From NCBI GenBank assembly GCA_944329425.1, contig CALVIG010000002.1:75880-139879 (forward strand): DNA of 64,000 nt, written 5' to 3'. The notes under the pieces are model-generated. The model saw only the letters and a list, made by a program, of their open reading frames with translations, searched no databases and was not told where the DNA came from. Positions 27,169 to 43,709 of this stretch are shown here, in pieces. Origin of the DNA: an uncultured Bacilli bacterium (GTDB taxonomy: Bacteria; Bacillota_I; Bacilli_A; RF39; UBA660). Position 1 is the first letter of the stretch. Each line of letters starts with the position of its first letter. A program made the position numbers and the translations under genes.

Positions 27169-28377
27169 GTGAAAAAAATATGTTTTTTTATTATTTGTCT
27201 TTTTATGTTTTTGCCATTAATAAGTGCGCTTGAAGAAGAAAAACAAGAAACTAATACTACTAACGAAGAAGAAAAACAAGATACGAAAACCGAAGATGAT
27301 GGCTTACTAAGTGATGGTAAAAGTGCTATTTTAATTGAAGCATCAACTGGTAAAATACTATACGAAAAAAACTCTCATGAAAGATATGCGCCAGCTTCAA
27401 TGACCAAAATAATGAGTATGATACTTATTATGGAAGAAATAGAAAAAGGTAATTTAAAATGGAACGATACTTTGGTAGCAAGTGAGTATGCCGCATCTAT
27501 GGGTGGATCTCAAATATTTTTACAACCGAACGAAAAGATGAGCGTAAAAGATTTGTTTAAAGCGGTAGCAATAGGTTCTGCTAATGATGCAACGGTTGTT
27601 TTTGCGGAAAAAATAGCAGGAACTGAAGAAAAATTCGTAGAAAAAATGAATAAGAAAGCAAAGGAATTAGGGCTTAAAGATACTAACTTTAAAAACGCCG
27701 TAGGGCTTGATGAAGCTAATCATTATTCATCAGCTTATGACATGGCTTATATGGCTAAAGAATTAGTTAAGCATGAAAAAATATTTGAATTTACTACGAT
27801 ATATGAAGATTACTTAAGACAAAATACTGATAATAAGTTCTGGCTTGTAAATACCAATAAACTTATAAAGACGTACGATGGGGCAGACGGGCTTAAAACA
27901 GGATACACCACCGAAGCAGGATATTGTTTAACCGCTACTGCGTACCGAAACAACATGAGGTTAATAGGAACGATAATGGGTGCTAAAGAAAGCAAAACAA
28001 GAAATACAAACATGGCTACTTTGTTAGATTATGGTTTTAACATGTATCAGATGCAAGTTGAAGTAAAACAAGGTGAAGTAGTGTCTAAAAAGAAATCTTC
28101 TAAAGCAGAAAACGAAGTAATAGAAATAGTACCTAAAAAAGATGCTAGTGTATTAGTAGAAAAAGGAGAAGAAAAAGAAGCTTTAAACTATGAAATGAAT
28201 TTAGATAAAATAAAACTTCCAATAAAAAAAGGAGATAAAATAGGTGTATTAAAATTAAAGGATGGTAATAAGGTTATAAGTACCGTTGATTTAACGGTTA
28301 AAGAGGACGTAGAAAAAGCAAGTATACTAGAACTATATAAAAGGTCAATAAAATCTATTTTATCAGGTAATATGTAA
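27169..28377 (+). CDS. D-alanyl-D-alanine carboxypeptidase (S11, PBP5/DacB/DacF-like)
   Basis: Signal peptide, SxxK 'ASMTKIM', SxN 'GSANDA', KTG 'LKTGYT' and a C-terminal PBP5 beta domain. Confidence 0.9.
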   Translation: MKKICFFIICLFMFLPLISALEEEKQETNTTNEEEKQDTKTEDDGLLSDGKSAILIEASTGKILYEKNSHERYAPASMTKIMSMILIMEEIEKGNLKWNDTLVASEYAASMGGSQIFLQPNEKMSVKDLFKAVAIGSANDATVVFAEKIAGTEEKFVEKMNKKAKELGLKDTNFKNAVGLDEANHYSSAYDMAYMAKELVKHEKIFEFTTIYEDYLRQNTDNKFWLVNTNKLIKTYDGADGLKTGYTTEAGYCLTATAYRNNMRLIGTIMGAKESKTRNTNMATLLDYGFNMYQMQVEVKQGEVVSKKKSSKAENEVIEIVPKKDASVLVEKGEEKEALNYEMNLDKIKLPIKKGDKIGVLKLKDGNKVISTVDLTVKEDVEKASILELYKRSIKSILSGNM

Positions 28378-28399: not shown

Positions 28400-28484
28400 T
28401 GTTTATTTATGTCATGATAATATTTTTTAAAAAATAAATGTTATAATACATAATAATAGTTAATAATTGATATGGAGAAAGTAT

Positions 28485-29972: not shown

Positions 29973-30082
29973 TTATTTAATTATACACATTAAAAATGAT
30001 ATAGTTTCAAAAAAATATTTTAACTATATTTTTGAATATAAATTATCAACTTAAAATAATTAATGAAAGGTATTATATAAAA

Positions 30083-30451
30083 ATGGCACAGGAAAATTCT
30101 AATATAGGTGAGCTATTTATTAATATTTTAAATGATATTAATTTAATAGAAAAAAGCAAATTTTATAAAAAAGATGATTCTTTTATGAAAATCAAAGAAA
30201 TAATAAAACAGTGGTATGATAATTATAAATTAAATAAGATATTAACATCTATAACGATAAAAGATTTGGAGTATTTAGATTTAGAAATTACTAGTTTTTT
30301 TGATAAATATATAGAATATGAATCAATTAAAGAAAATTATTCTGAAAGATTATATTATGATTTTTGTAGGTTAGAAAAAATTTGGAAAAATAAAATGGTA
30401 GGAGAAAAAAGTAAAAGAATTCATCAAAATATAATAAATATAATTAATTAA
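30083..30451 (+). CDS. Hypothetical small protein
   Basis: 122-aa ORF from the ATG at 30083. The tracked TTG at 30032 would overlap a candidate hairpin at 29999-30034. No motif recognised. Confidence 0.4.
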   Translation: MAQENSNIGELFINILNDINLIEKSKFYKKDDSFMKIKEIIKQWYDNYKLNKILTSITIKDLEYLDLEITSFFDKYIEYESIKENYSERLYYDFCRLEKIWKNKMVGEKSKRIHQNIINIIN

Positions 30452-30559
30452 ATAAATTTATTATGAAAAATTAATAAATAATGAGTAATATTTTACACCA
30501 GGTTGACAAAAAATGCTTTTTATGATAACATATTCCCCAATTAAAGGGGGTTTTTTATT

Positions 30560-31519
30560 ATGGAAAAGAAAAGTGGTCAACTGCAACCGCATGAGATGAT
30601 AATTCAATACGAAGGATATAAAGGAATAAATCTTGAAAGATTTAATGTTAATCAATTAAGAAATTTAAAACAAATTCTTCAGATGGCGTCAAATATGCCT
30701 GAATATGCAAGAATTAATAGTGACATGGCAAGTTTGCCTTCATTATCTCTAGAAGAAATCAAGAATAAAACAAAAGAATTTTGTCTCAAGTATTTTAATT
30801 TGCACGATATTAATTTTACTACGATGGATTCTATTAGAAAAATAGTGAATCAAATACCTATTACGGCAAAACCAGAAGAAGCATATAGAATTATTAATTC
30901 TGTAATGGAAAAAAAGAGTCCATTAGATTTAGAAGTGCGATTGACAAATGGTCATGCAATGTCGGGAAAAATAGTTAAGCCTATACCATTAATAGAAAAT
31001 ATGATTAATGATGATAATAGAGAAATGTGTTTTTCACATATTGAAATCGGGGCTCAATTAAATCCGTTATCCGTTGGTACTTTAGTACATGAGGTTGCTC
31101 ATGCAGAACAAGAACAAAATATTGGATATGCAGAAGATTATTTAAATAAAGAAATAATAAGTATATTTTTAGAAAAAGTAAATGCTATGGAAATGGATCC
31201 TTCAGGTAATTTACTGAAATTATCTGAAAGAGCGAGACTTACTGATTTATTAGTAAGATATTCGACTTTATTACTAAAACCTAATTCAGTTACTGAATTA
31301 CAAAAGATTGATAATTTAATGTATATAAAATCAATACTAAATGCAGAAAAATTATTTGATATGTATATTAATGAAAGAAAACAAAAAAACAAAGATAAGT
31401 ATTTTACCATGATACAAGATGTATTTGATGGAAAAATAACGGTAGAAGATATGTTAAGAATTAAAAACATTACTACTAATAATAGTCAGGATTTTGGAAT
31501 GTTAAAAAGACATTTATAA
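30560..31519 (+). CDS. Putative zinc metallopeptidase (HExxH)
   Basis: 'TLVHEVAHAEQ' followed 17 residues later by 'KEIISIFLE', a gluzincin-like third-ligand region. RBS 'aaaggggg'. TTGACA at 30503-30508 upstream. Confidence 0.5.
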   Translation: MEKKSGQLQPHEMIIQYEGYKGINLERFNVNQLRNLKQILQMASNMPEYARINSDMASLPSLSLEEIKNKTKEFCLKYFNLHDINFTTMDSIRKIVNQIPITAKPEEAYRIINSVMEKKSPLDLEVRLTNGHAMSGKIVKPIPLIENMINDDNREMCFSHIEIGAQLNPLSVGTLVHEVAHAEQEQNIGYAEDYLNKEIISIFLEKVNAMEMDPSGNLLKLSERARLTDLLVRYSTLLLKPNSVTELQKIDNLMYIKSILNAEKLFDMYINERKQKNKDKYFTMIQDVFDGKITVEDMLRIKNITTNNSQDFGMLKRHL

Positions 31520-31681
31520 TTTAAAATAATATAGAAATATATTCTTTTTTTAAATTAAATAGCAGGTAAAATGATATAATTGTTTTTTTGAAATTACTGT
31601 TAATTTTGTTTTAAACAATATGTTTTTTACCAATATGAGGGTGTTTGAACTACAAATATTTATTTAATTAAAATATAAGAT

Positions 31682-31747
31682 GTAATTAAATGTAAACAGT
31701 ACTTTTTGTGCTGTTTATTTTTAATTTTTCTCTGTTATAATATAATT
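31682..31747 (+). repeat. Copy A of a roughly 66-bp terminator-plus-promoter cassette (direct repeat of 47018-47082)
   Basis: gtaattaaatgtaaaca + 9-bp-stem hairpin (aaacagtac/gtgctgttt) + atttttaatttt + extended -10 tgttataatataatt. Confidence 0.8.
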
Positions 31748-31774
31748 ATTAGTAATTAAGTTGTGGTGATAAAG

Positions 31775-33604
31775 ATGAAAATAATAGATGCAGCTCAAAA
31801 TAAACCTATTGAACTCATTAAAAATAAGATAATAAAAAAAAGGGATTATCAAGATTTATTAAAAATAGTACGTAAAAACAGACCTGATTTAAGCATAGAA
31901 GAGATAAATTATATGTTTAATAAAATTAATAAAACAGGTTGTTCTTGTGCAACACTCGCTAATAACATAGGTAAAATTTTTTTGAGCAAAGAAGATGAAT
32001 TTGAAAAATACTTTGGTTACTCTTTATATTCTAGTAATGGTAATATAGATTATAATAGAATATTAGTAGATTTGTTTTCCAAATTTTATGGAGTTGCAAA
32101 AGTAAGGTTGATAAAACACGACGTATTTTCTTTTAAAAGTGCAAAAGAAGCGGCAGAAAAACTACTTGGTAAAAAGTTCGATAAAGAAAGTGATGCTACT
32201 TTAAAACTTTTTGAACAAGGATATCAAGGTGATGGTTTTGATTCAGATGGTAATCTTTTATTTAAAAAAAGAATTCCTGATGTAAGTGAAATTATAGGTA
32301 CGAAAAATGAAATATCTAAAAAACTTTTAAATATTGACAGCGTAAAAGATTTTGATGAATTAAAACATTTATTAGAAAAAAAAGGTTATATTCTTGAATA
32401 CAAAGACTTGGAAATACATGAAAAGTTAACTGGTTTAACTATTACTAATTTTAATTTTTGGACTAATTATTATTTTAATAGCTATAATTTAGACTTTACT
32501 TTAAATGCTACCAGTATTGTACCAAAAGACTTTAGTAACTACGAGGATTTTATAAACTATATAAATAATTTGATTTGTAAAGGTAATTTAATAAATGTAT
32601 CTGTAGGTCCTAATAAAGAAGTTTATATACATACTGATAAACCTTTTTCATGGACAAAGATCTCTAACGAAAGAGCGGGGCATATAATGAATTTTTTGGG
32701 ATTTGATAAGGAAGGTAATATAAAAGTATCTACGTATGGAGAAACATACGTAATTCCAAAAGAATATGCTAGTTTACTTGAATTTTCGAAAGTAGAAAAG
32801 AAAGACAAGAATATTGTGTTTGGTAATAAAGTTAAAACTAAAGTAAAAGATAATATGGAAAAAGAATTAATTGAATTATCAGCAGCAAAAGTACATGAGG
32901 ATTGGTGCTATCAAGAATTAAAAGCATTTTTCGATAGAATGCAAGATGTCATTAAAGAAGGAGTAACAAGACCGATAGAAATATTTGAAAAGGCTTGTTA
33001 TAAAGGAGATATAAAAAGAAATGAAGTTGAAATTGATACATCATTCATGATGGGACATGAAACCATGGCACAACAATCTTTAACGGATTTTAATACGTTT
33101 ATGAACTTGTTTAAAATTGGGGCAATAAACGTTAAAAGATTTGCAAAAAGAAATTTAACCGAAGAAGAACAAGAAAGATTAAAAAGAAGTAATGATTATA
33201 AAGATGGAAACGAAAACATTTTAAGACCATTTGAAAAGTTATCTAATGATTCAAGAAAAGAAAATTTAAATGCCGCACAAGGCGCATATAACGTTTATGT
33301 TGAACTAAGTAAAGCTGGAATAACTCCTGATGAAATGCAAAATAATCCGGATATAAATAATATTATAGGTATTGCAATTCATGCTGACTGGTTAAAAAGA
33401 AACAAAGAACATCCTAATGACGCTTTAAAAGTTCCTTATTCACAATTAGATGAATGGACTCAAAATCAAGATATAACGGTTTTTAATGCTTTATTAAAAA
33501 CTGTAAAAGAAAATGATTATAAATTTTTAATTAATAAAGAAGAAGGATATGAATTACCTGATTATGAACAGATGGAAAAAGACGTGTTAGGTATAAGTTT
33601 ATAG
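31775..33604 (+). CDS. Papain-fold (C39-like) cysteine-peptidase-like N-terminal half fused to two RyR-like repeats
   Basis: Candidate nucleophile 'NKTGCSCATLANNIG' and His 'RAGHIMNFLGFDKEGNIKVSTYG'. C-terminal 'AAKVHEDWCYQEL...LRPFEKLSNDSRKENL' and 'IAIHADWLKRNKEH...LKVPYSQLDEWTQNQD' resemble the RyR domain pattern hE.W ... P(F/Y)..L. Confidence 0.45.
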   Translation: MKIIDAAQNKPIELIKNKIIKKRDYQDLLKIVRKNRPDLSIEEINYMFNKINKTGCSCATLANNIGKIFLSKEDEFEKYFGYSLYSSNGNIDYNRILVDLFSKFYGVAKVRLIKHDVFSFKSAKEAAEKLLGKKFDKESDATLKLFEQGYQGDGFDSDGNLLFKKRIPDVSEIIGTKNEISKKLLNIDSVKDFDELKHLLEKKGYILEYKDLEIHEKLTGLTITNFNFWTNYYFNSYNLDFTLNATSIVPKDFSNYEDFINYINNLICKGNLINVSVGPNKEVYIHTDKPFSWTKISNERAGHIMNFLGFDKEGNIKVSTYGETYVIPKEYASLLEFSKVEKKDKNIVFGNKVKTKVKDNMEKELIELSAAKVHEDWCYQELKAFFDRMQDVIKEGVTRPIEIFEKACYKGDIKRNEVEIDTSFMMGHETMAQQSLTDFNTFMNLFKIGAINVKRFAKRNLTEEEQERLKRSNDYKDGNENILRPFEKLSNDSRKENLNAAQGAYNVYVELSKAGITPDEMQNNPDINNIIGIAIHADWLKRNKEHPNDALKVPYSQLDEWTQNQDITVFNALLKTVKENDYKFLINKEEGYELPDYEQMEKDVLGISL

Positions 33605-33905: not shown

Positions 33906-34262
33906 ATGGAATATAAATATAACATTATTAATGATGTATATAATTGGATGGTATCTAGAAAAAAGAATGTTGAAGTTAGATTATTAAAAGAAAAATCAGA
34001 AAAAATTCAAATAGGTGATTATATAACTTTTAATAATATAAATTACTTTGGAAAATTCGCTAAAGTTAAAATTATTAATAAAACTATATTTAATAATATT
34101 GAAAAATTATTGTTAAAATATGATGTTGAAAGAATAATGCCTGGTCATAATACAAATGAACTTATAAAGTTAATTAATGATATATATGGTTATGAGTTAA
34201 AAAATAAAAAAATTGTTGCCTTTGAATTTGAATATTTGTTATGTGATAAAGATGTTAAATGA
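33906..34262 (+). CDS. ASCH (PUA-like fold) domain protein
   Basis: 118 aa. 'VSRKKNVEVRLLKEKSEKIQIGDYITF ... KVKIINKTIFNNIEKLL ... PGH ... IVAFEF' follows the ASCH pattern (k.iE.Rl.d.k...i.vGD.i.f ... f.el ... v.ai.f). RBS 'aaaggaagga'. Confidence 0.6.
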   Translation: MEYKYNIINDVYNWMVSRKKNVEVRLLKEKSEKIQIGDYITFNNINYFGKFAKVKIINKTIFNNIEKLLLKYDVERIMPGHNTNELIKLINDIYGYELKNKKIVAFEFEYLLCDKDVK

Positions 34263-34354: not shown

Positions 34355-35734
34355 ATGGTTGATAAAGATTATGCTAATTTAGAGGAAATAAAAAATAATA
34401 CTGTTTGTTTAGATGATTTTGATGATAATGAAGAAGATGATACTTCTATAGTTGAAAATAGAAATTTAGTTATAGATAAACCAGAACCTACTATTGAAGC
34501 TTTAGTAAATAAATATAATCGTGGAAAAATAATTCTACAACCAGATTATCAAAGAAAATATGTTATGAAACCTATGGTAGCAAGTAGATTAATAGAATCT
34601 ATATTATTAAATATTCCATTACCTGTTATTTATTTTGCTGAAGAAGAAGATGGTAGTTGGAGCGTGGTTGATGGACAACAAAGATTAACTTCAATTATAT
34701 CTTTTGTGCAAGGAAAATATATTACAGATGGAAAAGACTTTAAACTTTCAGGTTTAAAGGTATTATCAGAGTTAAATAGAAAATCTTTTAAAGAATTAGA
34801 TGATGCTATGCAAGAAAAAATAATGGATACATCATTAAAATCATTTGTTATAAAAAACAGTTCAAGTGAAGAAATAAAATTTGAAATATTTGAAAGATTA
34901 AATACGGGATCAACTCCGTTAAATGAAGATGAAATAAGAAATAATCTTTATAGAGGAGAATATATAAATTTACTTGCAGAATTAGAAAATGATCCTGTTT
35001 TTGATAAATTGGTTGCTAAACCAAATTTTAAAAATCGTATGTTATATAGAGGAATGATATTAAGATTTTTCGCTTTTTATGAAAAAAGTTACTTAAATTA
35101 TGTACCTAGTATGAAAACTTTTTGTAATAAACATTTAAAAGATTTTAGAAATATGAGTAAAGAAAAAAGGGCAGAATATACTAAGGTATTTAAAGAAACC
35201 ATAGATAAAGTTAATTATGTGTTTGGTGAAAATGCGTTTAGAAGAATGAAAAAACAAGATGATAGTAATAATACTATTTGGGTAAAAACAAGAATTAATA
35301 TGGCTTTATATGATGTTCAAATGAATGGCTTTATTAGATATTCAAAAGATCAAATTATTAGACATAGTGAAGAAATAAGAGAAGCTATGTATGAATTAAT
35401 GACAACTAATATTGATTTTATAGATTCTATAGAAATGCAAACAAGTAATAGTGATATGGTAACAAGAAGATTTAAAATGTGGTTAGATAAATTAGAAGAA
35501 ATAATGAAAAGTGAAAAACCAAATCCAAGGCTATTTCCAGATGAAATAAAAATAGAACTATGGAATGAAAGCCCAGTTTGTAAATTATGTAATCAAAGAA
35601 TATTAAATTTTGATGATGCTCAAGTTGATCATATTATTCCTTATTCAGAAGGCGGTTTAACAGTAAAAGAAAATGGACAATTAGCACATAGATATTGTAA
35701 TCAACATAAGAGTAATAAAATTAAAGAAGATTAA
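34355..35734 (+). CDS. DUF262 (ParB/GmrS-like) N-terminal domain fused to a C-terminal HNH nuclease; a GmrSD/BrxU-like putative type IV restriction enzyme
   Basis: 'LQPDYQRKYVM', 'VVDGQQRLTSI', 'FEIFERLNTGSTPLNEDEIRNN'. C-terminal 'CKLCNQ...DHIIPYSEGG...NGQLAHRYCNQHKSN'. Confidence 0.8.
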   Translation: MVDKDYANLEEIKNNTVCLDDFDDNEEDDTSIVENRNLVIDKPEPTIEALVNKYNRGKIILQPDYQRKYVMKPMVASRLIESILLNIPLPVIYFAEEEDGSWSVVDGQQRLTSIISFVQGKYITDGKDFKLSGLKVLSELNRKSFKELDDAMQEKIMDTSLKSFVIKNSSSEEIKFEIFERLNTGSTPLNEDEIRNNLYRGEYINLLAELENDPVFDKLVAKPNFKNRMLYRGMILRFFAFYEKSYLNYVPSMKTFCNKHLKDFRNMSKEKRAEYTKVFKETIDKVNYVFGENAFRRMKKQDDSNNTIWVKTRINMALYDVQMNGFIRYSKDQIIRHSEEIREAMYELMTTNIDFIDSIEMQTSNSDMVTRRFKMWLDKLEEIMKSEKPNPRLFPDEIKIELWNESPVCKLCNQRILNFDDAQVDHIIPYSEGGLTVKENGQLAHRYCNQHKSNKIKED

Positions 35735-35751
35735 AATAATCTTCTTTTTTT
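35723..35751 (+). terminator. Rho-independent terminator
   Basis: aaagaagatt-aaaat-aatcttcttt followed by a T-run. Overlaps the stop codon. Confidence 0.7.
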
Positions 35752-35829
35752 GTATTAAATATCATTTTAAAATTTTGTGTTAAATCAAAGCTGTTATTTG
35801 CTTAAGTAATAGAAGAAACAAGAATTTTA

Positions 35830-35838
35830 TGTTATAAT
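35830..35838 (+). promoter_or_regulatory. Extended -10 promoter element TGTTATAAT of the hsd operon
   Basis: tgttataat sits 37 nt upstream of the hsdM ATG. Confidence 0.5.
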
Positions 35839-35874
35839 CATAAGTAAATAAGGCGTTTTAACGGAGGGTTAAAT

Positions 35875-37371
35875 ATGAATGAAAATGAATTAAAAAAATT
35901 AGAGTCTAAATTATGGGCAGCAGCAGATAAAATGAGAGGCGCAGTTTCAGTATCGGAATATAAATTTATAGTATTAGGTTTAATATTTTTAAAATATATT
36001 TCTGATTCATTTGAGGAAAGATATAAAGAATTAGTAGAAGAAGGATATGGCTTAGAAGAAGAAAAGGATAGCTATACAGAAAAAAACATATTCTTTGTAC
36101 CACAAAAGGCTAGATGGGAATATTTAGTAAAACATTCAAAAGACGATAACATTGGTGAAATAATTGATGATGCATTAACACTAATTGAAAAAAATAATAC
36201 GTCATTAAAAAATGTATTACCAAAAGATTATAATAGTCCAACAATGAGAAATGTAAATTTAGGAGAATTAATTGATTTATTTACTAATATTAAAGTTGGA
36301 ACAAAAGATGCTATTCAAAAAGATATATTAGGTAGAATATATGAATATTTCTTAGGACAATTTGCTAAAAACGAATTACAAAAAGGAGGAGAATTCTATA
36401 CACCAGCATGTTTAGTTAGAACAATGGTTGAATGTATTGAACCTTATCAAGGTAGAGTATATGATCCAGCTTGTGGATCTGGTGGAATGTTTATTCAGTC
36501 AATGAAGTTTGTTAAGGAACATCAAGGAAGATTAGCTAACATTAGTATTTATGGGCAAGAAAAAAACCCAACTACCTGGAGATTAGCAAAAATGAACTTA
36601 GCAATTCGTTCATTAAATGGCGATTTGGGTAAATATGCGGCAGATACCTTTACAGAAGACCTACATAAAGATTTAAAAGCAGATTTTATATTAGCAAATC
36701 CTCCTTTTAATCAAGAATGGGATGTAGATAAAGTATCAAAAGATTCAAGATGGAGATATGGATTAGCTCCTAAAAATAATGCAAACTATGCTTGGTTACA
36801 ACACATGATATCTAAATTATCTCAAAATGGTAAAATGGCTTGTATATTAGCAAATGGATCACTATCAGCAGGAGGACAAGAAGGAGAAATTAGACAAAAA
36901 ATAATTGAAGCTGATTTAGTAGATTGTGTTATTTCGATGCCAACTAATTTATTTTATACAGTAACTGTTCCATGCTCTATATGGATTATAAATAGAAATA
37001 AAAAACAAAAAGGAAAAACATTATTTATAAATGCTACAAATTTAGGAACAATGGTTACAAGAAGATTAAGAGAATTATCAGATGAAGATATAAAGAAAAT
37101 AGCAGATACATATCACAATTATCAAAGTAATGAAAATTATGAAAATATTAAAGGTTTTTGTTACTGCGCAACAATAGAAGAAATTAAGTCAAATGATAAT
37201 GTATTAACACCAGGAAGATATGTTGGTGTGGAAGATTTTGAAGATGATAGCATTCCTTTTGAAGAAAAAATGAAAAATATTACTTCAGAACTATCTAAAC
37301 AATTTGAAGAATCACATAAATTAGAAGAAGAAATAAAGAAAAATTTAAAAGCAATTGGTTATGAAATTTAG
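35875..37371 (+). CDS. hsdM: Type I restriction-modification system, methyltransferase subunit
   Basis: HsdM N-terminal domain ('LWAAADKMRG', 'YKFIVLGLIFLKYISD'), SAM motif I 'VYDPACGSGGMF', motif IV 'LANPPFN'. Confidence 0.95.
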   Translation: MNENELKKLESKLWAAADKMRGAVSVSEYKFIVLGLIFLKYISDSFEERYKELVEEGYGLEEEKDSYTEKNIFFVPQKARWEYLVKHSKDDNIGEIIDDALTLIEKNNTSLKNVLPKDYNSPTMRNVNLGELIDLFTNIKVGTKDAIQKDILGRIYEYFLGQFAKNELQKGGEFYTPACLVRTMVECIEPYQGRVYDPACGSGGMFIQSMKFVKEHQGRLANISIYGQEKNPTTWRLAKMNLAIRSLNGDLGKYAADTFTEDLHKDLKADFILANPPFNQEWDVDKVSKDSRWRYGLAPKNNANYAWLQHMISKLSQNGKMACILANGSLSAGGQEGEIRQKIIEADLVDCVISMPTNLFYTVTVPCSIWIINRNKKQKGKTLFINATNLGTMVTRRLRELSDEDIKKIADTYHNYQSNENYENIKGFCYCATIEEIKSNDNVLTPGRYVGVEDFEDDSIPFEEKMKNITSELSKQFEESHKLEEEIKKNLKAIGYEI

Positions 37372-37409
37372 TCTCAAAAATTGTGATTTGTAGGAGAAAG
37401 GAGATATTT

Positions 37410-38546
37410 ATGGAATTTAAAAACTATAAAATGGAAGATATTGCAACTTTTTCTCAAGGCAAACAAGTTGAAATAGAAAATCAATATACAGAAAAAAAAG
37501 AAAATATGAGAAGATTTTTAAGAATTATTGATTTTACTAATCCAAATGAACCAATTAGATATGTTGAAGATTTTGGAGATAGATATTATGCAAAAAAAGA
37601 TGATTTAGTAATGATAAGATATGGATCTCAGACTTGTGGTAAAGTTGTAATTGGAAAAGAAGGAATTATTGCTAATAATATGTTTAAAATTAATTTAGAT
37701 AATTCAATTGTATTAAATAGATATGCTTATTATTATCTAAAACAAGATATTGTTTATAATTATCTTCGTGGTTCACAAAATTCTTCTACAATGCCATCTA
37801 TTAATTTTGGAATTTTAAATAAACTTGAAATAGAAGTTCCAAGTATAGATAATCAAAGAAAAATAGTTAAAATATTAAATGATATTGATGAAAAAATTGA
37901 TTTAAATAATCAAATAAATAATAATTTGTATGAGATGGGAGATAATTTATATAATGAATATTTTGGTAAGTATAAAGATAATTTACCATCTGATTATAAC
38001 ATTGTTAAATTAAATGAAGTTGCTGATAACTTTGATTCAAAAAGAAAACCAATGTCCAATAGAGAAAGAAAACAACATAGAGGAATATATCCATATTATG
38101 GGGCGACTTCAATCATAGATTATGTTGATGATTATATTTTTGATGATACATATTTACTAATGGGTGAAGATGGAACTGTTAAGACTGATGATGGATATCC
38201 AGTTCTACAATATATATGGGGTAAAAACTGGATTAATAATCATGCTCATGTATTAAAAGGTAAAAATATTTCAACTGAATTATTAATGTTTGCTTTAAGA
38301 AAAATTAACATTGAAAATATTATTACTGGAGCTGTTCAACCAAAAATAAATCAAGAAAATATGAATAAAATAGAATTTGTTATTGGTTCAGATTCTAAAA
38401 ATAAAGAGTTAGAAGATATTCTTAAAAAATTAATGGATAAGTCAAAAAATATAATTGAAGAGAATAAAAGATTAGAAGAATTAAGAGAAACATTATTACC
38501 AAAATTAATGAATGGTGAAATAGATTTAGATAAAATAGAATTGTAA
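37410..38546 (+). CDS. hsdS: Type I restriction-modification system, specificity subunit
   Basis: Two target-recognition domains separated by conserved helices ('IPSIDNQRKIVKILNDIDEKI', 'LEELRETLLPKLMNGEIDL'). ATG at 37410 after 'aggagaaaggag'. Confidence 0.9.
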   Translation: MEFKNYKMEDIATFSQGKQVEIENQYTEKKENMRRFLRIIDFTNPNEPIRYVEDFGDRYYAKKDDLVMIRYGSQTCGKVVIGKEGIIANNMFKINLDNSIVLNRYAYYYLKQDIVYNYLRGSQNSSTMPSINFGILNKLEIEVPSIDNQRKIVKILNDIDEKIDLNNQINNNLYEMGDNLYNEYFGKYKDNLPSDYNIVKLNEVADNFDSKRKPMSNRERKQHRGIYPYYGATSIIDYVDDYIFDDTYLLMGEDGTVKTDDGYPVLQYIWGKNWINNHAHVLKGKNISTELLMFALRKINIENIITGAVQPKINQENMNKIEFVIGSDSKNKELEDILKKLMDKSKNIIEENKRLEELRETLLPKLMNGEIDLDKIEL

Positions 38547-38569
38547 TTTTAATGTTGTTAGGAGAAAAA

Positions 38570-38929
38570 ATGAAGAAAGAAAAACTAAAATTTGAAGAAA
38601 AGTATTTTAAAATTCAAAAAGAATTTAAATCTAACCAATGGAAAAAATCTCAACTTGAAAAATATATTTTGAATATACAAGCTGAAAAAGTAAAATTGGA
38701 AACTCTCATTAAATTGGTAGAAATAGGGACTGTTCCATTATCATTGTCTTTTTTATCCTTTATTCTTTCTTTAACTCAATTTAAAATAGTTGCTATAATA
38801 TTGTTATTATTAATTTTCATAATAATGACATTAAGTATATCATTTATAATTATATATAAGTGTAAAAAAAGTATATTTCAAATTGAAATGATAATTGATT
38901 TGGCAAATAAAATTATTAATAAAAAGTGA
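38570..38929 (+). CDS. Small membrane protein of unknown function embedded in the hsd operon (119 aa; N-terminal charged helix plus 2 TM segments)
   Basis: RBS 'aggagaaaaa', then ATG 24 nt after the hsdS stop. 'VPLSLSFLSFILSL' and 'IVAIILLLLIFIIMTLSISFIIIY' are hydrophobic spans. Confidence 0.6.
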   Translation: MKKEKLKFEEKYFKIQKEFKSNQWKKSQLEKYILNIQAEKVKLETLIKLVEIGTVPLSLSFLSFILSLTQFKIVAIILLLLIFIIMTLSISFIIIYKCKKSIFQIEMIIDLANKIINKK

Positions 38930-38959
38930 TCATACAAATTGTGATTTGCTGGAGGTAAA

Positions 38960-39472
38960 ATGAAGGGTATAGAATTAATAATTAACTTTTTAACTGCAAT
39001 TGGAACTATAGGAGCGGTAATTGTGGCATTATATCTTAACAATATTAATAGTAAACCAAAATTAAAAATTGTTAAAATTTATACTGAAGATGAGGAAAAA
39101 CTATATTTTGCGTTTCAAATATTTAATAATGGAAGTTTTGAACCAATAGTAAAACAACTTGGGTTTTCGAATAAAAAGAAAATGAAATGGCAAAAATTAG
39201 GCGATAGTAGAAGGCAATATAAAAAGGAATTTTTAGACGAAGAATTACTGGATAAGATTTCTTATTATCATTATCCAGTAAAGATTAAGACTGGAGAAAT
39301 GTTAGGAATATTATTAAATAGAAGTGAACTTTTAGATATAAAGGATAATTTAAAATTAGGACGAATAAGATTAAAATTAATATTTATAGATGAATCAAGA
39401 ATATCTATAAAACTATCTAGAAAAGAAATAGATAAATATTTAGAAGAAACAAATAAGTTTGGAAGTGATTAA
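38960..39472 (+). CDS. N-terminally anchored protein of unknown function embedded in the hsd operon (170 aa)
   Basis: RBS 'ggaggtaaa'. N-terminal TM 'LIINFLTAIGTIGAVIVALYL', then a soluble domain of about 140 aa. The stop lies 4 nt before the hsdR ATG. Confidence 0.6.
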   Translation: MKGIELIINFLTAIGTIGAVIVALYLNNINSKPKLKIVKIYTEDEEKLYFAFQIFNNGSFEPIVKQLGFSNKKKMKWQKLGDSRRQYKKEFLDEELLDKISYYHYPVKIKTGEMLGILLNRSELLDIKDNLKLGRIRLKLIFIDESRISIKLSRKEIDKYLEETNKFGSD

Positions 39473-39476
39473 TAAT

Positions 39477-42400
39477 ATGTTTACAGAAGAAATGTTAGAA
39501 GAAATGACAATGAATTTGTTATTGGAATTAGGATATGATTGTAAAAATGGATATGAAATAGACAGAGATTTCCATAGTGTTTTTGATGATAACATTTTAT
39601 TTAATTCTATTGCAAATATAAATAGAGATTTTAATGCTGAGCAAATAAATGAAGCAATAAAAATTATTAAGAATTTAACTCATAATAATGTTGTTGAAGA
39701 TAATAAAGTGTTTACAAAATATTTATTACAAGGTGTACCAGTGGAAGTTAAAACTAATACTGGATATCAGTATAAAAATGTTAAATTAATTGATTTTGAT
39801 AATATAGAAAATAATCACTTTCAAGCTATTAATCAATTTACTATTATTGAATTTGAACAAAAAAGACCAGATATAATTATATTCGTAAATAGTATTCCTT
39901 TAGTAGTTATTGAACTTAAAACAGCTACTAATGAGGATGTAAATCTAAAAGATGCTTATAATCAATTATGGAGGTATAGAGAAATGTCTATACCAACATT
40001 ATTTAGATATAATCAGTTTTTAGTTATAAGTGATGGAGTAACTGCTAAAGCCGGAACAATTACAAGTCCATATAGTAGATTTAGTGATTGGAAAAAGATT
40101 GAAGATACTGATGAAGTAAGAGAAAATATGGATACTCATTTAACACTATTTAATGGTATGTTTAGAAAAGATAGATTATTAGATTTAATAGAAAATTATA
40201 TTTTATATAGTAATGATGCTAAAATTTTAGCTCAATATCATCAATATTTTGGCGTTAAAAAAGCAATTAAATCAACGGTTACTAATGGTGTTAAAACTGG
40301 TAAAGCTGGAATTGTTTGGCATACACAAGGATCTGGTAAATCATTTAGCATGGTATTTTACGCTGGTAATATGATTAGGTTATTATTAAATCCAACTATA
40401 TTAGTTGTAACTGATAGAAATGATTTAGATAATCAGTTATATGAAACATTCTATAAATGTTCTAATTTTTTAAAACAAAAACCTATACAGGCTGATTCAA
40501 GAAGTGATTTAAAGGAACTTCTTAAAGATAGAGTTGCAGGTGGAGTATTTTTTACAACTTTACAAAAATTTGAAGAAGAATCTGGATTATTCTCAGATAG
40601 AGATGATATTTTAGTTTTAGTAGATGAAGCACATAGAAGCCACTATGGATTAGAAGCTACTATGAAATTAAATTTAGAAACAATGCAAGCTTATAAAAAA
40701 TATGGTACTGCAAAATTTTTGCATGATGCATTACCTAATGCAATTTATATTGGATTTACTGGAACTCCAATAGAAACTAAGGATAAGTCAACATCTTCAA
40801 TATTTGGTAACGTTATTGATACTTATGATATGACTCAAGCAATCCTAGATGGTTCAACGGTACCAATTTCTTATGAATCGAGAATGGCTAGAGTAGGATT
40901 GAATCAAAAAATACTTGATGAAATAGATAGATATTATGCTTTTGTAGAAGAGTCTGGAGCAGCTGATGAAGTTGCTATAAATAAATCAAAACAAATGATG
41001 GCAAAAATTTCTCAAGTAATAGAAGATGAAGACAGATTAGAATTAATTGTAAAAGATATTATTAGTCATTATGAAGAAAGAAAAAATATGACTGCAAATC
41101 ATGCTATGGTAGTTGCTTATTCAAGAAAAAGTGCTTATATAATGTATAAGAAATTTTTAGAGATAAGACCAGATTATAAAGATGTAGTAAATATGGTTAT
41201 TACACCAAGTAATAAAGATCCAGAAGAAATGCAAAAAGCAATTGGTACTAAAGGTGATAAAAAAGAATTAGAAAGAAGATTTAAAAGTGAAGATGCAGAT
41301 GAAAAATTTAAAATAGCAATTGTAGTTGATATGTGGCTTACAGGATTTGATGTTCCACAACTTGGTACAATGTATATTGATAAACCAATGAAAGCTCATA
41401 ACTTAATGCAAGCTATTGCGAGAGTTAATAGGGTTTATAAAGATAAAACAGGCGGATTAATTGTAGATTATATTGGTTTAAAAGGATGGTTATTAGATGC
41501 TTTAAAAACATATACAAAAAGAGATCAAAATAAAATAACTGATACAAAAGAATTAGTAAATGTATTATTAGATAAAATTGAAATTATTGATAATATGTTT
41601 AATGATTTTGATTATTCTAAGTTTAAAGAATTAGATAACACAGGAAAATATCAATTAATTAGAGATGGAGCAAATTTAATGTTATCTACTGAAGATACAA
41701 AACGTAGGTATATGAAACATAGTGGGGATGTTAAAAATCTATATACATTATGTAATGGTGTTGTTAGTAATTTAGTTAAAGATAAATGTTTATTTATTAT
41801 TTCGGTAAAATCATTTATATCTAAAATAACAAATACTGGTAAATTAGATGTATCAGAAATTAATCAAACAGTAGGTAGAATGTTAGAGGAATCTATTACA
41901 GAAGATGAATTAATTAATTTAGGAGAATTAACTAGAGGAAATAGTTTAGAATTATTAAGTGATACTATGTTAAGTAAACTTAGAGCTATGAAAGATAAAA
42001 ATGTTGTTGCCGAGGTATTATCTAGAGCAATCAAAACAACTATAAGTGATATTGGTAAAATAAATTTAACAATACAGGAGAAGTTTTCTACAAAATTCAA
42101 TAAGATAGTTGATATGTATAATGAAAGAACAGATATAGCAGATATAGAAAAAATAATTGAAGAAATGATTAATTTAAAAAAAGAAATAGAAGATGAAATT
42201 GCCAATGGTAATGAGTATAATTTATCTCCAGAAGAAAAAGCATTTTTTGATGCTTTGGGTGCTGATCCTGAAATTAAAGAATTAATGAAAGATGACGTTT
42301 TAGTACAAATAGCAAAAGATTTAGTAGAATTAATTAATAAAAACTTAACTCTTGATGCATTTAAAAGGGAAGATGCTAGAGCTAGAATTAGAAGTAATAT

Positions 42401-42500
42401 AAGAAGATTACTTATCAAATATAATTACCCTCCAGTAAAAAGGGAAGGTGCTGTTGATAAGGTAATTAAGCAAGCAGAATTAAAGTATGCAAATAATTAA
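39477..42500 (+). CDS. hsdR: Type I restriction-modification system, restriction (helicase-nuclease) subunit
   Basis: N-terminal PD-(D/E)xK 'RPDIIIFVNSIPLVVIELK', Walker A 'HTQGSGKS', DEAH 'LVDEAHRSHYG', 'GFTGTP', 'QAIARVNR'. Confidence 0.95.
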   Translation: MFTEEMLEEMTMNLLLELGYDCKNGYEIDRDFHSVFDDNILFNSIANINRDFNAEQINEAIKIIKNLTHNNVVEDNKVFTKYLLQGVPVEVKTNTGYQYKNVKLIDFDNIENNHFQAINQFTIIEFEQKRPDIIIFVNSIPLVVIELKTATNEDVNLKDAYNQLWRYREMSIPTLFRYNQFLVISDGVTAKAGTITSPYSRFSDWKKIEDTDEVRENMDTHLTLFNGMFRKDRLLDLIENYILYSNDAKILAQYHQYFGVKKAIKSTVTNGVKTGKAGIVWHTQGSGKSFSMVFYAGNMIRLLLNPTILVVTDRNDLDNQLYETFYKCSNFLKQKPIQADSRSDLKELLKDRVAGGVFFTTLQKFEEESGLFSDRDDILVLVDEAHRSHYGLEATMKLNLETMQAYKKYGTAKFLHDALPNAIYIGFTGTPIETKDKSTSSIFGNVIDTYDMTQAILDGSTVPISYESRMARVGLNQKILDEIDRYYAFVEESGAADEVAINKSKQMMAKISQVIEDEDRLELIVKDIISHYEERKNMTANHAMVVAYSRKSAYIMYKKFLEIRPDYKDVVNMVITPSNKDPEEMQKAIGTKGDKKELERRFKSEDADEKFKIAIVVDMWLTGFDVPQLGTMYIDKPMKAHNLMQAIARVNRVYKDKTGGLIVDYIGLKGWLLDALKTYTKRDQNKITDTKELVNVLLDKIEIIDNMFNDFDYSKFKELDNTGKYQLIRDGANLMLSTEDTKRRYMKHSGDVKNLYTLCNGVVSNLVKDKCLFIISVKSFISKITNTGKLDVSEINQTVGRMLEESITEDELINLGELTRGNSLELLSDTMLSKLRAMKDKNVVAEVLSRAIKTTISDIGKINLTIQEKFSTKFNKIVDMYNERTDIADIEKIIEEMINLKKEIEDEIANGNEYNLSPEEKAFFDALGADPEIKELMKDDVLVQIAKDLVELINKNLTLDAFKREDARARIRSNIRRLLIKYNYPPVKREGAVDKVIKQAELKYANN

Positions 42501-42527
42501 TAAACTATTTAGAATTTATTTAAAAAA

Positions 42528-42536
42528 TGTTATAAT
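42528..42536 (+). promoter_or_regulatory. Extended -10 promoter element TGTTATAAT
   Basis: tgttataat sits 28 nt after the hsdR stop and 72 nt before the next ATG. Confidence 0.45.
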
Positions 42537-42608
42537 AACTCTAGATACTAAAGGGTATATTTCGTTTTTAATAATGGAATATGCTCTTTTTTGATTGGAG
42601 GAAATATT

Positions 42609-43709
42609 ATGAAAGATAATTTAAGTACAATAAAATATTCTATACAGGATAAAAAATTTAAATATCACATGATAAAATCACAATTAAAAAAAGATAGTTT
42701 AATTTCTAAAAAAACTCATCCGTTAAAAGAAGTAGAAAATTATAAGAAAAAATTAATGAATAAAAAATTATTAGAAAATTATAATGCTGATTATTATGTT
42801 TTAAAAAAAACAATAAAAGTTGGAGGCTTAATGGCATATAATTTGTATTCTGGAAAAATTAAAAAAGAGTTTGAAATTAATTACCCAATTGTTATAAATA
42901 AAAGTGATGATATGATAAAACAAGAATTTAAAATAAAAAATATTTTTTCTATAGATTCTATATTACATAATAATGTTAATATAGGAGCTTATAAATTAAA
43001 GAAAATCAGTAAATTAGAAATAAATTTTAATTTTATATCGGAACATAATGCAGATAAATTTTCTCCAGTAGAAGAGATAATCAAAAATTTATTAATTAAA
43101 TATTCACATATTAGCAAACATGCCAGGCATGGTATATCTAAGTTTAAAGAATGTGATATTGTTGATGAAACAACAAATAAACAAATAGAAGTAATAACAG
43201 AATTTAAAAATAGATTAAAAAAAGATAAAACTCCTCAAAAAAATATAGATATGCTAATTATTGAATGTGTTGACAACAATCTAATAAAAACTTCTAAGGC
43301 TTTAATAGAAAAATATATTAAAAAAGACTATACTTCTAAATACGAAAAGCAGCTTGCTATTTTTTGTATAGGAACCAGGCAAGCAGTTGTAACAATGTTG
43401 GAAAAATTAGCTGATAATTTAAAAGAAACTGTTATAAAGAATAATTTTAAAAAATTATATATTTTATTTTATGATTTTGTGAAAGAGAAATATTATTGGT
43501 ATCCAACAGAAAAAAATGATGTAAAAAAAGTTAATAATATAGTGGACAGAATTATTTATAAAACTAATATTAATTATAAAGATATACTTAATAATGAAAA
43601 ATATTTAATTGAATGTAAAAATATATTTAATTCAGATATAATGATTACTTTTCTTACAGGAAAAGAAATAAAGGATTTTGCTAACAGAATCGAATTAATA
43701 ATAGATTAA
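42609..43709 (+). CDS. Hypothetical protein (366 aa) directly downstream of hsdR
   Basis: RBS 'ttggagga'. No confident domain. 'CDIVDETTNKQIEVITEFK' could be read as a D...E.K nuclease-like core, but this is speculative. Confidence 0.5.
   Translation: MKDNLSTIKYSIQDKKFKYHMIKSQLKKDSLISKKTHPLKEVENYKKKLMNKKLLENYNADYYVLKKTIKVGGLMAYNLYSGKIKKEFEINYPIVINKSDDMIKQEFKIKNIFSIDSILHNNVNIGAYKLKKISKLEINFNFISEHNADKFSPVEEIIKNLLIKYSHISKHARHGISKFKECDIVDETTNKQIEVITEFKNRLKKDKTPQKNIDMLIIECVDNNLIKTSKALIEKYIKKDYTSKYEKQLAIFCIGTRQAVVTMLEKLADNLKETVIKNNFKKLYILFYDFVKEKYYWYPTEKNDVKKVNNIVDRIIYKTNINYKDILNNEKYLIECKNIFNSDIMITFLTGKEIKDFANRIELIID

What the first reader, a model, noticed from the sequence alone, without database searches (positions are those of the whole stretch)
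38552..39472. Two small membrane-protein genes wedged between hsdS and hsdR inside an otherwise canonical type I R-M operon
Seen in sequence:
- The hsdS stop is at 38546.
- A 119-aa ORF (ATG 38570, RBS aggagaaaaa) has a charged N-terminal helix and two strongly hydrophobic spans.
- A 170-aa ORF (ATG 38960, RBS ggaggtaaa) has one N-terminal TM helix and a soluble domain of about 140 aa.
- Its stop at 39472 lies 4 nt before the hsdR ATG at 39477.
- I see no terminator or TGnTATAAT element anywhere between the hsd promoter (35830) and the hsdR stop, so all five genes look co-transcribed.
- Neither inserted protein shows a motif I recognise.

Established knowledge: the E. coli prr locus has the same geometry (hsdM-hsdS-prrC-hsdR). 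There the inserted gene is a latent suicide effector held in check by the R-M complex and released when phage inhibits restriction.

Inference: this pair could be a membrane-acting backup or abortive-infection module, or another R-M accessory, physically or functionally coupled to the type I enzyme. This is my top candidate for an undescribed system.
Basis: partly seen in the sequence, partly recalled or inferred. Interest (0 to 1): 0.8.

Follow-up and report, generated by a model that had tools for sequence, protein, structure and literature searches.

The report
Two membrane-protein cassettes inside restriction operon
Two small, uncharacterised membrane-protein genes really do sit between hsdS and hsdR of a type I restriction-modification operon, but they are two separately mobile accessory cassettes in a known "cargo slot" rather than a coupled pair, and their function is untested, though probably related to phage defence.

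Summary
hsdM, hsdS, ORF A (119 aa), ORF B (170 aa) and hsdR lie on one strand with tight junctions, one promoter-like site upstream and one terminator-like hairpin downstream. One detail is wrong: a TGCTATAAT lies inside ORF A.

Both ORFs are real genes under purifying selection (dN/dS 0.2-0.3 for A, 0.06-0.16 for B). Neither matches Pfam, NCBIfam or PADLOC.

They are not an obligate pair.
- **ORF A** is very rare. Wherever its surroundings could be read, it directly follows an hsdS gene in one clade of type I operons. There it is usually followed by a second hsdS, not by B.
- **ORF B** abuts hsdR in at least four hsd lineages, three of them without A. Relatives also occur next to HEPN genes and serine recombinases.
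- **The wider B superfamily** has a strikingly conserved transmembrane (TM) helix and a predicted cytoplasmic beta-sandwich. Members sit in prophage accessory slots, beside an Abi_C gene and a McrB_N/NOV_C gene.

Embedding genes between hsdS and hsdR is already documented (PrrC, DarTG2, TgvAB, "guilt by embedding"). So this is a new, uncharacterised member of a known kind: plausibly defence or exclusion cargo, with function unproven. Interest is moderate.

The parts
35831..35839 (+). TGTTATAAT extended -10-like site upstream of hsdM (putative operon promoter)
   Evidence: Read directly in the sequence. This is a consensus match only.
35875..37371 (+). hsdM (498 aa)
   Evidence: Pfam N6_Mtase 3.3e-112 and HsdM_N 1.1e-28.
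37372..37390 (+). Degenerate copy (16 of 19) of the intercistronic junction motif, directly after the hsdM stop and before the hsdS ribosome-binding site (RBS)
   Evidence: Motif search. Direct repeat D2, 37353-37396 versus 38911-38954.
37410..38546 (+). hsdS (378 aa from ATG 37410; the mechanical ORF starts at GTG 37383)
   Evidence: Pfam Methylase_S 1.7e-30 in two stretches. Start inferred from the RBS context.
38547..38929 (+). ORF A cassette: 23-nt leader with RBS, plus ORF A (CDS 38570-38929, 119 aa). Predicted cytoplasmic K-rich amphipathic N-terminus, a two-TM hairpin and a short cytoplasmic basic tail
   Evidence: The cassette is a precise indel relative to L036, where the junction motif follows the hsdS stop directly. 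Only 6 clusters were found in 5.8 billion proteins. Every context that could be read lies directly after an hsdS. dN/dS is 0.22-0.33.
38791..38799 (+). TGCTATAAT extended -10-like site inside ORF A (with TTAACT at 38771-38776). A possible internal promoter for B-hsdR, or a chance match
   Evidence: It is kept in L025-L027 but not in L013, L016 or L029.
38864..38870 (+). A7 homopolymer tract in ORF A. An A8 allele elsewhere frameshifts the C-terminal 19 residues
   Evidence: The A8 allele P0024 (105 aa) lies on contigs from at least four samples.
38930..38948 (+). 19-nt junction motif TCATACAAATTGTGATTTG, which precedes the RBS of the next cistron
   Evidence: It is found directly after the stop codons of hsdS cassettes and of ORF A across this operon clade.
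38960..39472 (+). ORF B (170 aa): N-terminal TM helix with the conserved A-x-G-T-x-G-A-V-x-x-x-L motif, a predicted cytoplasmic beta-sandwich and a C-terminal helix
   Evidence: About 21 close clusters and a wider superfamily. AlphaFold2 model: pLDDT 76. All 56 aligned members carry more positive charge after the TM helix than before it. dN/dS is 0.06-0.16.
39461..39468 (+). GGAAGTGA, the SD for hsdR, embedded in the last codons of ORF B (suggests translational coupling)
   Evidence: Equivalent SD-like sequences lie in the 3' ends of B in L036, L022 and L030.
39477..42500 (+). hsdR (1007 aa)
   Evidence: Pfam HSDR_N 7e-43, SWI2_SNF2 1.6e-72 and T1RH-like_C 5e-73.
42550..42589 (+). Terminator-like hairpin followed by a T run, downstream of hsdR

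Best explanation
**Shown**
- This clade of type I operons is modular. Cistrons are joined by a repeated 19-nt leader, TCATACAAATTGTGATTTG, followed by an RBS.
- The stretch between the first hsdS and hsdR is a cargo slot whose content differs between related operons.
- In the window the slot holds two independent single-gene cassettes, both expressed as part of the hsd transcript.

**ORF A**
- It is a small hairpin membrane protein specific to hsd operons.
- Predicted layout: a cytoplasmic amphipathic N-terminus, a Ser/Thr-rich first TM span, a second TM span and a basic tail.

**ORF B**
- Its stop lies within a few bases of the hsdR start, and its last codons carry the hsdR SD sequence.
- It belongs to a wider uncharacterised superfamily of N-out/C-in, single-pass proteins with a cytoplasmic beta-sandwich.
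- The TM helix has invariant small residues (G15, T16, A19, V20, L24). This suggests helix-helix packing or oligomerisation rather than a passive anchor.
- Members of this superfamily are cargo of mobile elements: prophage accessory slots, edges of serine-recombinase elements, and positions beside HEPN, Abi_C and McrB_N/NOV_C genes.

**Inferred**
- Both proteins are accessory phage-defence or exclusion factors that ride on the R-M operon.
- B most likely acts on its own as a membrane-tethered cytoplasmic sensor whose TM helices assemble and compromise the membrane, or block DNA entry, when triggered.
- A may be a small holin-like effector whose activity depends on the R-M proteins, because it is never seen away from them.
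- They are not an obligate two-gene system.
For: **Operon anatomy**
- Gene order, junctions and signals.
- A cassette as a precise indel, and the shared junction motif.

**ORF A**
- Every context that could be read follows an hsdS. These lie in at least four different genomic neighbourhoods.

**Contexts of B**
- hsdS-B-hsdR (L036, L030).
- hsdS-241 aa-B-hsdR (L022, L037).
- Serine recombinase-HEPN-B-GTPase (L001, L039; L038 carries HEPN-B-GTPase on a short contig).
- HEPN-B-helicase (L007).
- Serine recombinase-B (L031).
- Sources.

**Other occupants of the slot**
- A 207-aa protein in L016 and a 218-aa TM-anchored protein in L013.

**Lineage and selection**
- hsd-linked B sequences group together in a neighbour-joining tree.
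- Both genes are under purifying selection.

**Structure and topology**
- AlphaFold2 model: TM helix plus beta-sandwich, pLDDT 76.
- Positive-inside rule satisfied in 56 of 56 superfamily members.
- Invariant TM motif.

**Links to mobile elements and defence genes**
- Lactococcus phage Dub35A gp053, the last gene after the lysin, is a superfamily member (hhalign probability 98.5%, E 1.6e-15).
- IMG/VR prophage: holin, lysin, B-like gene, Abi_C protein, integrase. Another contig: B-like gene directly upstream of a McrB_N/NOV_C protein.
- The window operon sits directly downstream of a GmrSD_N/HNH (NsnA-like) gene.

**Precedent**
- Defence genes embedded between hsdS and hsdR: PMC12255303, PMC11411939, 10.1101/2024.01.29.577857.
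Against: - There is no functional evidence of any kind.
- No match to any PADLOC defence model. The only hit is a marginal 7.5e-4 match of ORF A to PDC-M43A over a low-complexity helical stretch.
- Foldseek hits for B are generic 'helix plus beta-sandwich' folds with TM-scores of 0.3-0.45.
- The topology is a prediction.
- The survey of contexts rests on a few dozen metagenomic contigs from related AT-rich gut or rumen organisms. Part of the hsd linkage could therefore be vertical inheritance.
- Frameshifted ORF A alleles occur in several samples. A is therefore dispensable or phase-variable.
- The tight junction with hsdR is a property of the slot, not of B. The 207-aa and 218-aa genes also abut hsdR.
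Confidence: 0.5

Rival explanations
1. A and B together form a PrrC-like guarded suicide module: a latent membrane-disrupting effector held inactive by the assembled HsdMSR complex and released when a phage anti-restriction protein inhibits the enzyme.
For: - The geometry matches prrC (hsdM-hsdS-X-hsdR).
- ORF A is found only inside type I operons, as reported for PrrC.
- A has a holin-like two-TM layout, and B has a conserved TM helix.
Against: - A and B co-occur only in the window's lineage. Each occurs without the other in several operons.
- B and its relatives also function outside R-M operons.
- Neither has an NTPase or nuclease domain, and neither hits PADLOC PrrC models.
- No interaction data exist.
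Confidence: 0.12
2. B, and possibly A, is a regulatory or localisation factor for the restriction enzyme. Being translationally coupled to HsdR, it would tether or restrain HsdR (or another adjacent nucleic-acid enzyme) at the membrane. This could place restriction near the site of DNA entry, or delay restriction when the operon is first established in a new host.
For: - B always directly abuts hsdR, and the hsdR SD lies inside B's last codons. This holds in four hsd lineages whose HsdR is only 63-71% identical to the window's.
- hsd-linked B sequences group together in the tree.
- The predicted soluble domain faces the cytoplasm.
- Relatives of B lie next to other nucleic-acid enzymes: HEPN, Abi_C, McrB_N/NOV_C and an SF1 helicase.
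Against: - Other operons of the same clade carry unrelated genes at that position, and most type I systems carry none.
- B relatives occur alone, for example next to a serine recombinase or as the last gene of a prophage.
- Nothing suggests a binding interface.
Confidence: 0.15
3. The two genes are hitch-hiking cargo with no role in defence or R-M. They could be small membrane proteins of mobile elements with another function (lysis timing, element maintenance, envelope modification), or nearly neutral genes kept because they carry the translation signals of the downstream cistrons.
For: - Frameshift alleles of A are tolerated in natural populations.
- No defence-family match.
- A phage relative of B lies immediately after the holin-lysin cassette.
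- Neither gene was found in 185,579 GTDB species-representative genomes, which fits dispensable accessory genes.
Against: - B is under strong purifying selection (dN/dS 0.06-0.16) and A under moderate purifying selection.
- The genes repeatedly sit next to restriction, HEPN and Abi genes in unrelated elements.
- ORF A has no PHROG holin match and no lysin neighbour.
Confidence: 0.2

Closest known systems
PrrC anticodon nuclease in the E. coli prr locus (hsdM-hsdS-prrC-hsdR)
   Same: The position is the same: between hsdS and hsdR, on the same strand, inside the operon. ORF A, like PrrC, is seen only inside type I operons.
   Different: PrrC is a soluble protein of about 400 aa with an ABC-type NTPase domain and a tRNA-Lys nuclease domain. 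A and B are 119-aa and 170-aa membrane proteins with neither domain and no sequence similarity to it.
Two-gene defence systems embedded between hsdS and hsdR: DarTG2 in EPEC (PMC12255303) and TgvAB in V. cholerae VPI-2 (PMC11411939)
   Same: Two extra genes occupy the same slot of an active type I operon. The slot is described as a recombination hotspot for defence cargo.
   Different: DarTG2 and TgvAB are obligate pairs with recognisable enzymatic domains (ADP-ribosyltransferase with macrodomain; GmrSD-like). A and B are separable, lack any known domain and are predicted to be membrane proteins.
'Guilt-by-embedding' candidates (Payne et al. 2024, bioRxiv 10.1101/2024.01.29.577857) and the rlo genes of Campylobacter jejuni type I loci
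   Same: These are uncharacterised genes found recurrently inside type I R-M, BREX or DISARM operons. The class is large (3,231 families reported).
   Different: A and B match no model in PADLOC-DB v2. Whether they are in the later catalogue could not be checked.
Membrane-anchored prophage or plasmid exclusion and abortive-infection proteins (for example lactococcal Sie2009-type proteins and AbiP; recalled from memory, not compared by sequence here)
   Same: These are small proteins with one N-terminal TM helix, encoded in accessory slots of temperate phages or other mobile elements. AbiP is reported to be anchored with its soluble, nucleic-acid-binding part in the cytoplasm, as predicted for B.
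   Different: No sequence comparison could be made with the tools at hand. The prophage relatives of B lie after the lysin or before the terminase, not in the int-repressor slot typical of sie genes.
TM-plus-beta-domain effectors of signalling defence systems (for example CBASS Cap15)
   Same: The overall logic is the same: N-terminal TM helix or helices plus a small cytoplasmic beta-rich domain that could drive oligomerisation and membrane damage.
   Different: B has one TM helix and a sandwich rather than a barrel. It has no PADLOC Cap15 match. No cyclase or other signal generator lies next to it.

Membership tests
Type I restriction-modification operon (host operon) | HsdM (N6_Mtase), HsdS (two target-recognition domains) and HsdR (HSDR_N nuclease plus SF2 motor), all co-oriented | tested here: met
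   Pfam hits above the curated cut-offs for all three. All lie on one strand with short junctions.
Genes embedded in a defence system ('guilt by embedding') | Located between core genes of a known system, on the same strand, with no intervening terminator | tested here: met
   The only convincing terminator-like hairpin lies after hsdR.
Genes embedded in a defence system ('guilt by embedding') | Recurrent embedding of homologues in other instances of the system | tested here: met
   A: every context that could be read is inside a type I operon. B: directly upstream of hsdR in the window, L036, L022/L037 and L030.
Genes embedded in a defence system ('guilt by embedding') | Demonstrated anti-phage activity | not testable with these tools
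   This needs phage challenge of strains with and without each gene.
PrrC-type anticodon nuclease | N-terminal P-loop NTPase domain and C-terminal nuclease domain, about 400 aa, soluble | tested here: not met
   No Pfam, NCBIfam or PADLOC match. A and B are 119 and 170 aa and have TM spans.
Obligate two-gene system (A with B) | The two genes co-occur and are co-inherited across loci | tested here: not met
   A without B in L013, L016 and L026/L027 (in L025 and L029 the contig ends right after A). B without A in L036, L022, L030, L001, L007 and L031.
Phage holin (for ORF A) | Small protein with 1-4 TM spans and a charged C-terminus, next to an endolysin, with a match to a holin family | tested here: not met
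   The two-TM layout and basic tail are present. But there is no holin match in Pfam or PHROGs, no lysin neighbour, and no phage context in any locus.
HEPN-MNT toxin-antitoxin (for the HEPN-B pairs elsewhere) | The partner of the HEPN protein is a minimal nucleotidyltransferase | tested here: not met
   B has no NTP_transf_2 match or any other Pfam match. It is a TM-anchored beta-sandwich.
CBASS Cap15-like TM effector (for ORF B) | Sequence match to Cap15 models and an adjacent CD-NTase | tested here: not met
   None of the 56 superfamily members hits a PADLOC model. The window has no cyclase next to B.
Phase-variable type I system (hsdS shufflon) | A site-specific recombinase plus additional hsdS cassettes in the locus | tested here: not met
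   Relatives (L013, L016, L025, L029) have a tyrosine recombinase, and L013 and L016 also carry extra hsdS cassettes. The window has neither (tblastn).
Superinfection-exclusion proteins of temperate phages (Sie2009-type) | Sequence relationship to known Sie proteins; a block of phage DNA injection | not tested
   No Sie reference sequence was available for comparison. Only the architecture and the prophage accessory position are similar.

The most novel reading that the evidence does not exclude
The B superfamily (conserved A-x-G-T-x-G-A-V TM helix plus a variable cytoplasmic beta-sandwich) could be a widespread, undescribed membrane sensor or effector of phage defence. It would either work alone or partner with neighbouring nucleic-acid-targeting enzymes (HsdR, HEPN/Abi_C, McrB_N/NOV_C). 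ORF A could be a membrane-acting counterpart of PrrC: a suicide effector that depends on, and is guarded by, the type I enzyme.
Probability: 0.17. Interest if true: 0.75.

Novelty: new member of a known kind. Interest (0 to 1): 0.4.

Why it matters
If either protein is shown to protect against phage, it would add a membrane-acting member to the short list of characterised cargo embedded in type I R-M operons. That list is so far nucleases, ADP-ribosyltransferases and type IV enzymes.

ORF A would then be only the second family, after PrrC, known to be tied exclusively to type I operons.

The B superfamily reaches into lactococcal and other prophages, where it sits beside Abi and restriction genes. 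Its function could therefore matter for phage resistance in dairy and gut Firmicutes.

The repeated 19-nt junction motif also gives a concrete handle on how cargo is swapped in and out of these operons.

Tried and rejected
- **Family libraries.** Pfam, NCBIfam, PHROGs and PADLOC scans of A and B gave nothing above noise. PHROG matches for B-family members are weak and go to families of unknown function.
- **Solved structures by sequence.** Profiles of A and B and the 241-aa neighbour found nothing significant in the PDB.
- **First structure model.** AlphaFold2 on the shallow alignment gave pLDDT 49 and was discarded.
- **Fold search.** Foldseek with the better model returned only generic helix-plus-sandwich folds (archaeal pilins, TRAP subunits, Cu chaperones). 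I do not read these as homology.
- **Public collections.** Neither A nor B was found in the GTDB representative genomes or in IMG/VR. B was not found in GenBank phages or PLSDB plasmids, nor A in PLSDB plasmids.
- **Upstream partners of B.** I tested whether the different upstream neighbours (ORF A, the 241-aa protein, the HEPN protein) are related to each other. They are not detectably related.
- **The 218-aa gene in L013.** I tested whether this slot occupant shares B's anchor. The result is only a weak 30-residue match (hhalign E 0.0015, probability 16%).
- **RNA families.** Rfam scan of 35000-43000 found no RNA family.
- **Organism.** Cluster look-ups returned no names, so the organism could not be identified.
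- **Alternative genetic code.** A and B are in the same frame, 30 nt apart, so I considered a fusion through TGA read-through. I rejected it because the window's long genes are intact under code 11 and homologues of A end in TAA or TAG.
Full report
**What is there**

The window carries a five-gene block on the + strand:
- hsdM, 35875-37371
- hsdS, ORF from 37383, probable ATG at 37410, ending at 38546
- ORF A, 38570-38929, 119 aa
- ORF B, 38960-39472, 170 aa
- hsdR, 39477-42500

Pfam identifies the three Hsd subunits well above the curated cut-offs.

A TGTTATAAT lies upstream of hsdM at 35831-35839. The only convincing terminator-like hairpin follows hsdR at 42550-42589. Co-transcription is therefore the simplest reading.

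A TGCTATAAT with a -35-like hexamer 17 nt upstream lies at 38791-38799, inside ORF A. It is kept only in the nearest relatives. Promoter-like matches in this AT-rich DNA are about as frequent as in shuffles (101 against 90 expected), so I give it little weight.

**Are they genes?**

Both are. Against homologous loci, ORF A has dN/dS of 0.22-0.33 and ORF B 0.06-0.16, with changes concentrated at third codon positions.

ORF A has four parts:
- a K-rich N-terminal 52 residues with net charge +6, and 11 of 15 a/d heptad positions hydrophobic in the best register
- a Ser/Thr-rich hydrophobic span
- a second, very hydrophobic span after a one-lysine turn
- a basic amphipathic tail

This gives a predicted N-in/C-in hairpin.

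ORF B has one N-terminal span. In an alignment of 56 superfamily members, all 56 carry more positive charge after the span than before it (mean +3.4 against -0.9). The soluble domain is therefore predicted to be cytoplasmic.

AlphaFold2 on that deeper alignment gives pLDDT 76. The model has a TM helix (residues 2-30), a beta-sandwich and a C-terminal helix. An earlier model on a shallow alignment (pLDDT 49) was unusable.

Foldseek finds only generic 'helix plus sandwich' proteins and some uncharacterised siphovirus proteins, with TM-scores of 0.3-0.45.

Neither protein matches Pfam, NCBIfam or PADLOC. PHROG matches are weak and to families of unknown function.

**ORF A is tied to hsd operons**

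Only six clusters related to A exist among 5.8 billion proteins. Every context that could be read has the same layout: A starts 23 nt after the stop of an hsdS gene in a type I operon whose HsdM is 86-87% identical to the window's (where it could be compared). These operons sit in at least four different genomic neighbourhoods.

In those loci a tyrosine recombinase follows hsdM. In L013, L016 and L026/L027 a second hsdS cassette follows A. In L013 and L016 an unrelated gene (207 aa, or a 218-aa TM-anchored protein) lies just before hsdR.

B follows A only in the window's own lineage. The exact A and exact B sequences are seen on 28 and 27 contigs respectively.

A frameshift allele of A (an A8 tract instead of the window's A7 at 38864-38870) occurs in at least four samples.

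**ORF B travels separately**

About 21 close clusters exist, 61-86% identical to the window's B. B is found in these contexts:

| Context | Loci |
|---|---|
| hsdS-B-hsdR, no ORF A | L036 (closest relative, 86%), L030 |
| hsdS-241 aa-B-hsdR | L022, L037 |
| HEPN protein (PF05168, 28 bits) then B, beside a large serine recombinase and an RbgA-like GTPase | L001, L039 (L038: HEPN-B-GTPase only, short contig) |
| HEPN-B-SF1 helicase | L007 |
| Serine recombinase-B | L031, and a truncated copy in L020 |

In the operons where B precedes hsdR, HsdR is only 63-71% identical to the window's. In every one of them B's stop lies within 7 nt of, or overlaps, the hsdR start, and an SD-like sequence sits in B's last codons.

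In a neighbour-joining tree the hsd-linked B sequences fall in one half and the recombinase- or HEPN-linked ones in the other. This fits a single old capture followed by co-inheritance with hsdR.

In the HEPN-linked contexts B has its own TGATATAAT about 30 nt upstream.

**How the cassettes are joined**

In L036 the 19-nt motif TCATACAAATTGTGATTTG follows the hsdS stop directly and precedes B's RBS. In the window the same motif (38930-38948) follows ORF A's stop instead. The A cassette (38547-38929) is therefore a precise indel.

The motif follows the stops of hsdS cassettes and of A throughout the clade. A 16-of-19 copy follows the window's hsdM stop at 37372-37390. The operon is thus built from cistrons linked by a repeated leader, and the stretch between this leader and the hsdR start changes content between relatives.

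**The wider family of B**

Profile searches reveal a sparse superfamily of 150-200-aa proteins, all annotated as hypothetical. They share an almost invariant TM motif (G15, T16, A19, V20, L24) and an 'I-x-N-x-G' strand (N56 invariant).

Members include:
- Lactococcus phage Dub35A gp053, the last gene after the lysin (hhalign probability 98.5%, E 1.6e-15)
- a prophage contig with the order holin, GH25/LysM lysin, B-like gene, Abi_C protein, integrase (L044)
- a contig where the B-like gene lies directly upstream of a McrB_N/NOV_C protein (L048)
- contigs where it lies just before the terminase genes (L042, L043)

B-like genes are therefore typical accessory cargo of mobile elements, repeatedly beside HEPN-type and restriction-type genes.

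Neither A nor close relatives of B were found in 185,579 GTDB representative genomes or IMG/VR; B was also absent from GenBank phages, and both from PLSDB plasmids.

**Interpretation**

- *Shown:* embedding, probable co-transcription, separability of A and B, and the links to mobile elements and defence genes.
- *Predicted:* the membrane topology.
- *Inferred:* function.

The best reading (confidence about 0.5) is two independent accessory cassettes in a known cargo slot, most likely involved in phage defence or exclusion.

B plausibly acts as a self-contained, membrane-tethered cytoplasmic sensor whose conserved TM helix oligomerises. A may be a small holin-like effector that depends on the R-M proteins.

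Rivals:
This is weakened by the separability of the two genes and by the absence of any PrrC feature.
- a factor that localises or regulates HsdR (0.15)
- non-defence hitch-hikers (0.2)

**Comparison with what is known**

Embedding between hsdS and hsdR is established for several systems:
- PrrC
- DarTG2 (PMC12255303, which calls the site a potential recombination hotspot for defence systems)
- TgvAB (PMC11411939)
- the Campylobacter rlo genes

A systematic survey reports 3,231 protein families embedded in BREX, DISARM and type I systems (10.1101/2024.01.29.577857).

The finding is therefore a new, uncharacterised member of a known kind, not a new kind of system. Three features are distinctive:
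- both products are predicted membrane proteins
- A is exclusive to hsd operons
- the TM helix of the B superfamily is unusually conserved

**Verdict**

Novelty: new member of a known kind. Interest: 0.4.

Noticed in passing
window 34355-35734 (+): A 459-aa GmrSD_N plus HNH protein lies directly upstream of hsdM. It hits PADLOC NsnA at 7.9e-93 and is type IV restriction-like. The hsd operon therefore sits in a defence island.
   Followed up: partly
window 28467-33604 (+), 33906-34262 (+) and 42609-43709 (+): Four consecutive ORFs (501, 139, 319 and 613 aa) have no Pfam match, and a 118-aa ORF has only a sub-threshold ASCH match. A 366-aa ORF with no family match lies just after hsdR, with its own TGTTATAAT at about 42528-42536. 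These flank the R-M genes between housekeeping genes (a D-Ala-D-Ala carboxypeptidase at 27169-28377 and a methyltransferase/GNAT gene at 43865) and may be further defence candidates.
   Followed up: partly
window 38930-38948 and 37372-37390; L013, L016, L022, L026, L036, L037: A 19-nt motif, TCATACAAATTGTGATTTG, recurs immediately after the stop codons of hsdS cassettes and of ORF A, and in degenerate form after hsdM. It always precedes the next RBS. It also has a 16-of-18 inverted match to the conserved central hsdS segment (window 37916-37933). It could be a shared translation leader or a cassette-exchange site.
   Followed up: partly
window 38864-38870; L025-L028: ORF A contains an A7 tract. 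An A8 allele that frameshifts the last 19 residues (P0024, 105 aa) is present in contigs from at least four samples. This suggests either phase variation or tolerated loss of function.
   Followed up: partly
L001 9199-10513; L007 9204-10522; L038; L039; L044 3802-5204: B-family genes are paired repeatedly with HEPN-type genes. A 251-257-aa PF05168 HEPN protein lies upstream of B in gut or rumen contigs. An Abi_C (RNx5H) protein lies downstream of a distant B-like gene in a prophage. This may be a separate two-gene module worth its own study.
   Followed up: partly
L013, L016, L025, L029 (relatives of the window operon): Related operons carry a tyrosine recombinase right after hsdM. In L013 and L016 two hsdS cassettes lie in direct, not inverted, orientation and share conserved central and C-terminal repeats of 40-87 nt (71-90% identical). 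This is an unusual layout for a presumed phase-variable type I system.
   Followed up: partly
L022 458-688; L030 180-395; L037 88-318: A conserved 71-76-aa ORF lies immediately upstream of hsdM in the sister hsd clade. This is the position occupied by the small repressor RptR in the EPEC island (PMC12255303). The window has no equivalent ORF.
   Followed up: no
L013 16431-17852: A CBASS-like pair (CD_NTase_C protein plus a Cap15_CD_rec protein) lies just downstream of the related hsd operon, and an Abi_2 gene lies upstream. The relatives also sit in defence islands.
   Followed up: no
window 38927-38962: ORF A and ORF B are in the same reading frame, separated by 30 nt that contain two TGA codons. 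I judged this incidental, because the genome reads well under code 11 and homologues of A end in TAA or TAG.
   Followed up: yes
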